This document shows, in pieces, positions 31-5,486 of a DNA stretch of 5,486 bases. Within the stretch, counting starts at the first letter, position 1, and each line of letters opens with the position of its first letter. The notes beneath the pieces are model-generated. The model was not told the origin of the DNA. It ran no database searches and saw nothing but the letters and a program-made list of their open reading frames with translations. Source of the stretch: Enterobacteria phage ID18; the sequence record NC_007856.1; one strand, 5' to 3'. Position numbers and translations under genes: made by a program.

Positions 31-56
31 GCCTCCAAATCAACGGAGGCTTTTCT
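31..56 (+). terminator. GC-rich hairpin (GCCTCC / 8-nt loop / GGAGGC) followed by a TTTTCT run; candidate intrinsic terminator that also contains the gene A Shine-Dalgarno
   Basis: Seen directly: 31-36 GCCTCC pairs perfectly with 45-50 GGAGGC (6-bp stem, loop 37-44), followed by TTTTCT at 51-56. As I recall it, phiX174 has a near-identical GCCTCCAAATCTTGGAGGC-TTTTTT element immediately before the A start codon. Confidence 0.5.
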
Positions 57-3928: not shown

Positions 3929-4462
3929 ATGTTTCAAACTTATCTCTCTAAACATAATTCTCCGTTAACTTCTCTGTCTATTACTGCTACAAAAACACCT
4001 GCGGCTGCTGCTCCGATTATTTCTACACCGGAGCTTAGCCGCTCTACTATTTTCGCTGGCTTAACTCTGACTGCTGCCACTACTCATTCTGGTGTCGCTC
4101 ATGTCGTTCGTATTGACGAAACCAATCCTACTGACAATCAGGTCTTATCGGTCGCCGCTTCTTTATCTGGCGTACCGTCTGATGCTATTGCTATTGCTAT
4201 TCGCTTTGAGGTCGCTGACGGTACCGTCCCTACTGCTCTCCCTGCTCTCTACTCTGCTTATCCGGTGGAATTCTTCACTTCTGGCGCTGCTCTGTCTTGT
4301 AAGGATGCCGTATCTATTCCGACGCATCCTGTTACTGCTGGTAATGATGTATATGCTGGTATTCTTATCTGGTCCAAATCTTGGTCCGCTGGTGTCGTCT
4401 CCGGCCTCTTATCTGTTAATCAGGTAAACCGTGAAACTACCGTACTCCAACCTCTTAAATAA
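3929..4462 (+). CDS. G: Major spike protein G (177 aa)
   Basis: ATG at 3929 preceded by TAAGGA at 3916-3921. The product begins MFQTYLSKHNS (phiX174 G begins MFQTFISRHNS) and ends ...SLNQVNRETTVLQPLK (phiX174 ...SLNQVIKEIICLQPLK). The track ORF starts at an upstream TTG (3884) and is over-extended. Confidence 0.88.
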   Translation: MFQTYLSKHNSPLTSLSITATKTPAAAAPIISTPELSRSTIFAGLTLTAATTHSGVAHVVRIDETNPTDNQVLSVAASLSGVPSDAIAIAIRFEVADGTVPTALPALYSAYPVEFFTSGAALSCKDAVSIPTHPVTAGNDVYAGILIWSKSWSAGVVSGLLSVNQVNRETTVLQPLK

Positions 4463-4472
4463 GGTCTAATCT

Positions 4473-5486
4473 ATGTTCGGTGCAATCGCTGGCGGTATCG
4501 CCTCCTCTCTCGCTGGTGGACTCCTGAACAAAGCATTCGGGGGCGGTTCTTCCGCTCCCCAATCTGGCGTTCAAGGTAATGTCCTCGCTACTGACAATAA
4601 TGTAATCGGTGCTAATGATGCTGGTATCAAATCCGCTATTCAGGGTTCTAATCCTCCCAATGGTCAACAAGCTGCTCCCAATGCTATATCGGGCGTTCTT
4701 GCCGATACTGGCAAAGACGCCCTATCTTCAATCACTGGCGCTGGCGTTAATAAACTTATGGAAAAAATCGGACTCTCTAAAGATGCTGCTGCTAAAGGTA
4801 AGGATACGAAAGATTATCTTGCTTCTGCGTTCCCCGAACTCAACCCGTGGGAACGTGCTGGCGCTGGTGCTTCTTCTGCTGGAATGGTTGATGCGGGATT
4901 CCAAAACCAAAAGGAATTAACTCGCATGCAGCTTGACAATCAAAAAGAAATCGCTAAGATGCAAAACGACACTCAAAAGGATATCGCTGGTATCCAGTCT
5001 GTTACTTCTCGGCAAAATACTAAGGACTCTGTGTATGCTCAAAACGAAATGCTCCAATACAACCAAAAAGAATCTATGTCACGCGTTGGCGCTATTCTCG
5101 AAAACACAAGCCTCACCAAACAACAACAAACTTCTGAAATTATGCGGCAAATGCTTACTCAGGCTCAAACCTCAGGTCAACACTTTACAAATGACCAAAT
5201 CCAAGAACTTACTCGAAAGGTCGGCGCTGATATTGATGCTGTTCGTGCTAACACTGAACGTACACATGTAGAAACGGACCGCTCTAAGCAGGAGGTCCAA
5301 AACTCTCGTTACGCTTCCTCACAAGTCGGTAAAACCGCCAAGGATGTATCAAATGTCATTAGTGACGCATCTTCTGGTATTGTTGATTATTTTCGTGGCG
5401 TTGATAAAGCTGTCGCGGATACTTGGAACAATTATTTCAAAGATGGCAAATCGGATGGGATAAGCTCAAACCATCGTACCAAATAA
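4473..5486 (+). CDS. H: Minor spike / DNA pilot protein H (337 aa)
   Basis: AAGG at 4461-4464, 8 nt before the ATG. The product is collinear with phiX174 H ([132 protein letters not shown]). Stop TAA is the last three bases of the window. Confidence 0.93.

What the first reader, a model, noticed from the sequence alone, without database searches (positions are those of the whole stretch)
4473..5486. H protein with Gly-rich N-terminus and a long Gln/Lys-rich helical region
The N-terminus ([27 protein letters not shown]) is glycine-rich and hydrophobic. The region encoded by roughly 4900-5300 is rich in Q, K, E and T with heptad-like spacing, consistent with the coiled-coil DNA-translocation tube that phiX174 H forms. 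This is expected biology, noted because low-complexity regions like this can be mistaken for repeats.
Basis: partly seen in the sequence, partly recalled or inferred. Interest (0 to 1): 0.2.

Follow-up and report, generated by a model that had tools for sequence, protein, structure and literature searches.

The report
Gene H, DNA pilot protein, G4-like coliphage
The flagged stretch is the ordinary, well-known gene H of a G4-like relative of phage phiX174, coding for the protein that assembles into a ten-helix tube through which the phage pushes its DNA into E. coli; nothing here is new.

Summary
The window is a complete 5486-nt microvirus genome, 98.4% identical to coliphage WA14 (Gequatrovirus, G4-like clade) and with the same gene coordinates. 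The ORF at 4473-5486 (+) is gene H (337 aa). It is 99% identical to WA14 gpH and matches Pfam PF04687 (Microvir_H) at E=2.6e-136 and PHROG 1471 'pilot protein for DNA ejection' at E=6e-179. Residues 138-291 match the crystallised phiX174 H tube (PDB 4JPP) at E=7.6e-56. Residues 143-276 are 16% Gln, four times the level in the other phage proteins, with no Pro. Lys is not enriched there. The repeat pattern is not heptads throughout. By homology with the published phiX174 table it is three 11-residue hendecads (aa 146-178, a significant degenerate 33-nt tandem repeat), an 11-residue kinked transition, then heptads (aa 190-280). Heptad periodicity cannot be shown from this sequence alone. This predicts a tube about 20 Å longer than in phiX174. 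The verdict is a known gene, a correct interpretation and low interest.

The parts
4473..5486 (+). Gene H coding sequence (337 codons plus a TAA stop at 5484-5486), encoding the DNA pilot protein, also annotated as 'minor spike protein'
   Evidence: ORF. Pfam PF04687 at E=2.6e-136 and PHROG 1471 at E=6e-179. The gpH annotation in WA14 has the same coordinates. Against WA14 there are 10 synonymous and 3 non-synonymous differences, and differences to ID2, G4 and phiX174 are concentrated at third codon positions.
4461..4464 (+). Weak Shine-Dalgarno-like AAGG, 8 nt upstream of the H start codon and overlapping the stop codon of gene G (4460-4462)
   Evidence: Read directly from the sequence. This is an inference and was not tested.
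4473..4553 (+). N-terminal Gly/Ala/Ser-rich hydrophobic segment (aa 1-27), the putative membrane-inserting and oligomerising end of the tube
   Evidence: 30% Gly, 63% Gly+Ala+Ser, one charge, GRAVY +1.33 for aa 1-19. Conserved across the G4, phiX174 and St-1 clades. The literature describes both ends of H as Ala/Gly/Ser-rich likely membrane anchors (PMC4224467).
4815..4883 (+). The most conserved block of the family, [23 protein letters not shown] (aa 115-137), directly before the tube domain
   Evidence: Nearly every column is invariant across 13 H proteins, including Pectobacterium phage Mimer at 32% overall identity. Its function was not tested here.
4908..5006 (+). Three 11-residue hendecads (aa 146-178: [11 protein letters not shown] / [11 protein letters not shown] / [11 protein letters not shown]), forming the right-handed part of the coiled-coil tube
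   Evidence: They align one to one with phiX174 hendecads 1-3 (Table 1 of PMC7354561; mapping). Lag-11 identity is 12 of 22, reached by 0 of 20000 shuffles, and the DNA units are about 64% identical.
5007..5039 (+). Kinked 'transition' segment (aa 179-189, [11 protein letters not shown])
   Evidence: Aligned to the phiX174 transition 184-194, SRQNTKDQVYA.
5040..5312 (+). Thirteen heptads (aa 190-280), forming the left-handed part of the coiled-coil tube. Heptad position 1 reads Q N R N Q R Q T L D N E E.
   Evidence: Mapped onto phiX174 heptads 1-11. The named inward-facing residues are conserved: Q236, T239, Q242, L246, K249, D253 and E274 correspond to phiX174 Q241, T244, Q247, M251, K254, E258 and Q265. 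Predicted helical.
5247..5288 (+). 14-residue segment (aa 259-272, [14 protein letters not shown]; the boundary can slide by a few residues) that is absent from phiX174 and St-1 H and equals exactly two extra heptads
   Evidence: Alignments A1 and A2. The spacing between anchors N240 and S282 is 42 residues in all 10 G4-like or allied proteins, 28 in phiX174 and St-1, and 25 in Mimer. The segment has no Pro or Gly. AlphaFold2 continues the helix through it, but at low confidence (pLDDT 42-55).
5346..5483 (+). C-terminal region (aa 292-337) with strong amphipathic-helix periodicity, lying outside the crystallised domain
   Evidence: Hydropathy power at period 3.67 has z=5.3. Predicted helices 280-309 and 312-324 have low confidence. 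The role as second membrane anchor is taken from the literature, not tested here.

Best explanation
Window 4473-5486 is gene H of a G4-like coliphage (Microviridae, Bullavirinae, Gequatrovirus; a close relative of WA14). Its product is the DNA pilot protein. About ten to twelve copies are packaged inside the virion as monomers. After attachment to LPS, ten copies leave through a fivefold vertex and assemble into a decameric alpha-helical coiled-coil tube. The N-terminal part of that tube is right-handed (hendecads) and the C-terminal part left-handed (heptads). It spans the cell envelope, and its Gln/Asn/Arg-lined lumen conducts the circular ssDNA into the cell. The Gly/Ala/Ser-rich hydrophobic N-terminus and the amphipathic C-terminus are the probable membrane-anchoring ends. 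Shown here: gene identity, purifying selection, the repeat architecture by homology, and conservation of the lumen-lining residues. Inferred from phiX174 work: decamer formation, DNA passage and membrane anchoring.
For: The whole window is 98.4% identical to WA14 over 100% of its length and has the canonical gene order A, A*, B, K, C, D, E, J, F, G, H. Family matches are Pfam Microvir_H at E=2.6e-136 and PHROG 1471 'pilot protein for DNA ejection' at E=6e-179. PDB 4JPP and 4JPN (phiX174 H 143-282) match aa 138-291 at E=7.6e-56. The unit-by-unit correspondence with the published phiX174 hendecad/transition/heptad table, and conservation of the seven named inward-facing residues, come. Gln is enriched four-fold and there is no Pro in the tube domain. 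AlphaFold2 predicts about 85% helix in aa 138-300 at mean pLDDT 68. Substitution patterns indicate purifying selection in this frame. The mechanism comes from the literature: PMC7354561, PMC4224467 and the 2026 phiX174 mutagenesis preprint.
Against: Nothing contradicts the identification. There are three limits. Oligomeric state and DNA conduction were not and cannot be tested here. The AlphaFold2 monomer models are of low to moderate confidence (pLDDT 45 and 68) and fold the helix back on itself, as expected for an obligate decamer. Heptad periodicity is not significant from the sequence alone, probably because the lumen-facing positions are polar, so the coiled-coil assignment rests on homology to 4JPP.
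Confidence: 0.97

Rival explanations
1. The Q/T-rich stretch is merely low-complexity or repeat DNA, or a chance ORF, rather than a structured coiled-coil domain.
For: The composition is biased. Simple hydropathy and Q/N/R periodicity tests at periods 3.5 and 7 are not significant.
Against: The stretch is about 80% identical to a crystallised helical tube. The synonymous to non-synonymous ratio and third-position bias show selection on the protein. No DNA tandem or inverted repeats of note were found. The hendecad repeat is significant at protein level.
Confidence: 0.01
2. A second, overlapping gene is hidden inside H. Candidates are the frame +1 ORFs 4609-4920 (103 aa) and 4933-5271 (112 aa), or the minus-strand ORF 4455-4670 (71 aa).
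For: The two frame +1 ORFs stay open in the window, WA14, ID2 and G4, and the first also in phiX174. Overlapping genes are common in this family.
Against: Shuffling synonymous codons while keeping the H protein and codon usage gives a longest frame +1 open run of 127 +/- 40 codons against 116 observed, and 55% of shuffles reach the observed value. The open frames are therefore a by-product of T/C-rich third positions. They are broken in St-1, and the second also in phiX174. The minus-strand ORF has a stop in ID2, G4 and St-1. Synonymous sites of H vary freely.
Confidence: 0.02
3. H acts only as a static 'minor spike' or adsorption protein, one copy per vertex as older database notes state, and not as a DNA-conducting tube.
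For: Record annotations still say 'minor spike protein; adsorption' and 'one molecule of protein H is located at each of the 12 vertices'.
Against: The crystal structure shows a decameric tube, and tubes have been seen crossing the cell wall. Lumen mutants block genome delivery but not attachment or eclipse (PMC7354561). The lumen residues are conserved in this protein.
Confidence: 0.02

Closest known systems
gpH of coliphage WA14 (DQ079909, AAZ49389) and of Escherichia phage EMCL318 (MG563770)
   Same: Same length (337 aa) and same genome coordinates (4473-5486). The DNA is 98.7% identical and the protein 99% identical, and the whole genome is 98.4% identical to WA14.
   Different: There are 13 nucleotide differences in H: 10 synonymous and 3 conservative replacements (I99V, V177L, S234A).
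G4 H protein (AF454431; Gequatrovirus G4) and ID2 H (NC_007817)
   Same: 337 and 335 aa, 83-90% identical, with the same 3 hendecads, transition and 13 heptads, including the 14-residue segment.
   Different: Scattered substitutions, mainly in the N-terminal third and the last 40 residues.
phiX174 H protein (DNA pilot protein; PDB 4JPP/4JPN; Pfam PF04687)
   Same: 65-71% identical overall and about 80% in the tube domain. The hendecad and transition architecture is identical, the lumen-lining residues are conserved, and so are the Gly-rich N-terminus and the position as last gene after G.
   Different: phiX174 H has 328 aa and 11 heptads, while this protein has 13 heptads (+14 aa between phiX174 H263 and Q264). 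phiX174 has 5 extra residues in the N-terminal region (SAVS and one G), and Q265 is replaced here by Glu.
St-1 / alpha3-clade H protein and gpH of Pectobacterium phage Mimer
   Same: Same family and domain order. The FPELNPWER block and coiled-coil anchor residues are conserved.
   Different: St-1 is 52-58% identical and has 11 heptads like phiX174. Mimer is about 30% identical and has one extra 11-residue hendecad but the short heptad region.

Membership tests
Microvirus H protein / phiX174-type DNA pilot protein (Pfam PF04687, PHROG 1471) | Full-length sequence match to the family profile above the curated threshold | tested here: met
   PF04687 scores 454.5 bits against a cut-off of 22.7, E=2.6e-136, covering profile positions 2-307 of 310. 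PHROG 1471 matches at E=6e-179 over residues 1-337.
Microvirus H protein / phiX174-type DNA pilot protein (Pfam PF04687, PHROG 1471) | Central domain homologous to the crystallised decameric coiled-coil tube (PDB 4JPP) | tested here: met
   phmmer gives E=7.6e-56, aligning aa 138-291 to chain residues 1-140 with a single 14-residue gap.
Microvirus H protein / phiX174-type DNA pilot protein (Pfam PF04687, PHROG 1471) | Repeat architecture of three hendecads, a kinked transition, then a run of heptads | tested here: met
   Unit-by-unit mapping onto Table 1 of PMC7354561. The hendecad repeat is significant. The heptad count is 13 instead of 11, a variation in number and not in kind.
Microvirus H protein / phiX174-type DNA pilot protein (Pfam PF04687, PHROG 1471) | Lumen lined by amide or guanidinium side chains, with a conserved C-terminal 'bald spot' (T, M/L, K, E/D) | tested here: met
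   Q236, T239, Q242, L246, K249, D253 and E274 align with phiX174 Q241, T244, Q247, M251, K254, E258 and Q265. Heptad position 1 reads Q N R N Q R Q T L D N E E. That these residues face inward is inferred from homology.
Microvirus H protein / phiX174-type DNA pilot protein (Pfam PF04687, PHROG 1471) | Gly/Ala/Ser-rich hydrophobic N-terminus | tested here: met
   30% Gly, 63% Gly+Ala+Ser, one charge in 27 residues, GRAVY +1.33. The segment is conserved across clades. The small-xxx-small spacing is no more frequent than the composition predicts.
Microvirus H protein / phiX174-type DNA pilot protein (Pfam PF04687, PHROG 1471) | Genomic context: last structural gene, directly after G, in a roughly 5.4-6.1 kb Bullavirinae genome | tested here: met
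   The ORF map of the window and the annotated WA14 genome with identical coordinates.
Microvirus H protein / phiX174-type DNA pilot protein (Pfam PF04687, PHROG 1471) | Ten copies oligomerise into a tube that conducts ssDNA across the envelope | not testable with these tools
   Only monomer structure prediction was available. The mechanism is taken from phiX174 experiments.

The most novel reading that the evidence does not exclude
The G4-like lineage, including this phage, builds a DNA-delivery tube two heptads (14 residues, about 20 Å) longer than the 170 Å phiX174 tube. More generally, bullavirus pilot tubes change length only in whole coiled-coil units: +2 heptads in G4-like phages and +1 hendecad in Pectobacterium phage Mimer. 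This might match differences in host envelope or capsid constraints. The inserted heptads would add N260/R263 and E267/R270 at heptad positions 1 and 4, which extends the amide/guanidinium lining. I could not check whether this natural length variation has already been described. The relevant paper on length-altering H mutations (Roznowski & Fane 2016) is not in the library. From my own recollection of it, engineered lengthened phiX174 H proteins are viable, so natural variation would be unsurprising.
Probability: 0.25. Interest if true: 0.3.

Novelty: already known. Interest (0 to 1): 0.08.

Why it matters
It matters little beyond annotation. The flagged region is a textbook gene in a phage 98.4% identical to a 2006 isolate. 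Two points are useful. First, the biased composition and degenerate 33-nt repeat should not be flagged as anomalous in future scans. Second, hydrophobic-heptad coiled-coil tests can miss this kind of tube because its lumen-facing positions are polar. The two-heptad length difference between G4-like and phiX174-like tubes is a natural experiment on how tube length relates to envelope width, but it is a clade-wide feature and not a property of this window.

Tried and rejected
(1) DNA repeats: Tandem Repeats Finder at minimum score 30 found nothing in 4400-5486, and the repeat finder gave only two short two-copy families and no inverted repeats. There is no repeat element. The only true repeat is the protein-level hendecad triplet.

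(2) Periodicity: hydropathy Fourier analysis for period 3.5 or 7, and Q/N/R or hydrophobic indicator periodicity, were not significant in the heptad part. I could not confirm 'heptad-like spacing' independently of homology.

(3) AlphaFold2 of the full-length monomer from a 6-sequence alignment gave mean pLDDT 45, too poor for a fold search, so none was run. The central domain with 10 sequences reached pLDDT 68. It is mostly helix but folds back on itself, which is uninformative about the decamer.

(4) Overlapping genes in other frames were rejected by synonymous-codon shuffling.

(5) A sigma-70-like site inside H (4933-4960, 10 of 12 matches) is at chance level, with 11 sites found against 8.7 +/- 2.6 expected in the window.

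(6) Small-xxx-small (glycine-zipper-like) spacing in the N-terminus is no more frequent than the composition predicts.

(7) Papers: Sun et al. 2014 (Nature), Roznowski & Fane 2016 (J Virol) and Rokyta et al. 2006 are not held. One paper search for the N-terminus study returned only irrelevant hits.

Full report
WHAT THE WINDOW IS. The 5486-base window is a complete circular microvirus genome. Megablast against the phage collection finds coliphage WA14 (DQ079909, also 5486 nt; Microviridae, Bullavirinae, Gequatrovirus) at 98.4% identity over 100% of the window, then EMCL318 at 97.5%. The ID2/FL68 group and other G4-like phages follow at 82-85%. A gapless comparison with WA14 gives 86 mismatches. 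The WA14 annotation (A, A*, B, K, C, D, E, J, F, G, H) fits the ORF map of the window, and gene H is annotated at exactly 4473-5486.

CHECK OF THE OBSERVATION. The ORF 4473-5486 (+) begins with ATG, ends with TAA and encodes 337 aa.
They are 30% Gly against 5.3% in the other phage proteins (p=6e-5) and 63% Gly+Ala+Ser. They carry one charged residue, and aa 1-19 form the most hydrophobic 19-residue window of the protein (GRAVY +1.33).
This is due mainly to Gln (16% against 3.9%, p=1e-8) and Thr (10%). The stretch has no Pro and 3% Gly.
- Lys is 7% there, as elsewhere in H, so 'Gln/Lys-rich' should read 'Gln-rich'.
- Tandem Repeats Finder and the repeat finder see no DNA repeat of note in 4400-5486.

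IDENTITY OF THE PROTEIN.
- Pfam PF04687 (Microvirus H protein, pilot protein) matches at E=2.6e-136 over profile positions 2-307 of 310.
- PHROG 1471 'pilot protein for DNA ejection' matches at E=6e-179 over the full length.
- tblastn finds 570 phage records, almost all coliphages. WA14 H is 99% identical, G4/ID11 H 83-84%, phiX174 H about 65% and St-1 H 52%.
- Against solved structures the only hits are the two crystal forms of the phiX174 H central domain. 4JPP (residues 143-282) matches at E=7.6e-56 and aligns with aa 138-291. 4JPN matches at E=1.2e-33.
- The frame is under purifying selection. Differences to WA14 are 10 synonymous and 3 non-synonymous. Differences by codon position (1st, 2nd, 3rd) are 26, 12, 81 to ID2 and 49, 27, 139 to G4.

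ANATOMY OF THE COILED COIL. Roznowski, Fisher and Fane (PMC7354561) tabulate the phiX174 tube as three hendecads (151-183), an 11-residue kinked transition (184-194) and eleven heptads (195-271). [quoted passage not shown] A conserved 28 Å 'bald spot' (T244, M251, K254, E258) lies near the C-terminal end. Mapping through alignment A1 gives the following for this protein:
- hendecads at aa 146-178 ([11 protein letters not shown] / [11 protein letters not shown] / [11 protein letters not shown]; nt 4908-5006);
- transition at aa 179-189 (nt 5007-5039);
- heptads from aa 190 to 280 (nt 5040-5312).

The named lumen residues are conserved: Q236, T239, Q242, L246, K249, D253 and E274. The Q265-to-acidic change is the one the paper reports for the other clades.

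The hendecad triplet is a real repeat. It has 12 of 22 identities at lag 11, which none of 20000 shuffles reach. The 33-nt DNA units are only about 64% identical, which explains why the DNA tools miss it.

Heptad periodicity could not be demonstrated from this sequence alone. Hydropathy power at period 3.5 has z=0.7, and Q/N/R or hydrophobic indicators at period 7 give p of about 0.13. This is plausibly because the positions facing the lumen are polar rather than hydrophobic (inference). The 'heptad-like spacing' is therefore supported by homology to the structure and not by statistics. It applies only to the C-terminal two thirds of the domain.

STRUCTURE PREDICTION. AlphaFold2 on the full-length monomer with six sequences gave mean pLDDT 45. 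Helices were predicted at 142-210, 216-233, 240-271 and 280-309. The central domain alone (aa 138-300, ten sequences) gave mean pLDDT 68 and about 85% helix, but folded back at 211-215, 234-239 and 271-279. That is expected when an obligate decamer is modelled as a monomer. The models agree with a helical domain but add nothing to the 4JPP homology, so no fold search was run.

THE ONE DIFFERENCE FROM phiX174 WORTH NOTING. All G4-like H proteins examined carry 14 residues (aa 259-272, [14 protein letters not shown]; nt 5247-5288) that phiX174 and St-1 lack. These are the window, WA14, ID2, G4 and five further database lineages of 342-350 aa, including phage Lilleto.
- The spacing between the invariant anchors N240 and S282 is 42 residues in those proteins, 28 in phiX174 and St-1, and 25 in the distant Pectobacterium phage Mimer.
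- Fourteen residues are exactly two heptads, so the register is kept and the protein has 13 heptads.
- In that register the extra heptads ([14 protein letters not shown]) put N and E at position 1 and R and R at position 4, in keeping with the lumen chemistry.
- Scaling from 170 Å for 121 residues, the tube would be about 20 Å longer. This is an inference.
- Mimer has one extra hendecad instead (43 against 32 residues between Q146 and T178). Length may therefore change by whole repeat units.
- The short state in Mimer weakly suggests an insertion in the G4 lineage, but at 32% identity the alignment there is not secure.
- This is a clade-wide feature, not a peculiarity of the window. From my own recollection, engineered lengthened phiX174 H proteins are viable (Roznowski & Fane 2016, cited but not held). 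I could not check whether the natural difference has been described.

OTHER READINGS TESTED. Two frame +1 ORFs inside H (4609-4920, 4933-5271) remain open in the G4 clade. Synonymous-codon shuffles of the same protein give equally long open runs, 127 +/- 40 codons against 116 observed. They are therefore a by-product of the T/C-rich third positions. The minus-strand ORF 4455-4670 is interrupted in ID2, G4 and St-1. A promoter-like hexamer pair at 4933-4960 is within chance expectation.

MECHANISM. Steps taken from the literature are marked.
- H is packaged as monomers.
- After LPS binding and loss of a G spike, ten copies exit through the opened fivefold vertex.
- The Gln/Asn/Arg lining interacts with the passing ssDNA and is proposed to act as a controlled drag (PMC7354561).
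- Both termini are Ala/Gly/Ser-rich and are thought to anchor the tube in the two membranes (PMC4224467).
- Most detrimental mutations in phiX174 H that remain unexplained lie in these unresolved termini (bioRxiv 10.64898/2026.07.25.740675).

For the protein in this window, all sequence features needed for that mechanism are present. Oligomerisation and DNA passage are inferred and not shown.

VERDICT. The feature is already known: gene H of a WA14-like G4-clade coliphage. Interest is low.

Noticed in passing
window 31-50 (+): A terminator-like hairpin GCCTCC-(8 nt loop)-GGAGGC followed by TTTTCT. It lies just after the H stop across the circular junction and before the gene A start annotated at 59 in WA14. 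The longer 566-aa ORF from the ATG at 29 would run through it. The position fits a post-H transcription terminator like the one known in phiX174 (my own knowledge).
   Followed up: no
L006:187-1257 (Pectobacterium phage Mimer gpH), compared with window aa 146-178: Mimer's pilot protein has one extra 11-residue hendecad (NETALKATAMN / NETALQSTAMT), giving 43 instead of 32 residues between conserved anchors, but it has the short heptad region. Tube length seems to vary by whole coiled-coil units across bullavirus-like phages.
   Followed up: partly
proteins P0004, P0005, P0008, P0009 (phage Lilleto), P0011, compared with window aa 1-137: These 342-350-aa H proteins combine a phiX174-like N-terminal half (extra SAVQ and GG residues; P0005 even has the phiX174-like first 35 residues) with the G4-like 13-heptad C-terminal half. 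They are either a separate lineage or mosaics.
   Followed up: no
window 4815-4883 (aa 115-137): The block [23 protein letters not shown], just upstream of the crystallised domain, is the most invariant part of the whole family, even in Mimer at 32% identity. It lies outside any solved structure and I found no stated function for it.
   Followed up: no
whole window compared with WA14 (L001): Differences from WA14 are unevenly spread: 2.4-2.6% in A, C and D, 1.3% in H, but only about 0.6% in F and G, and none in J or the J-F and F-G intergenic regions. This could reflect different constraint or a recombinant history.
   Followed up: no
window 4609-4920 and 4933-5271 (+, frame +1 relative to H): Two long alternative-frame ORFs inside H stay open across the G4 clade, but synonymous-codon shuffling shows this is expected from codon usage.
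   Followed up: yes
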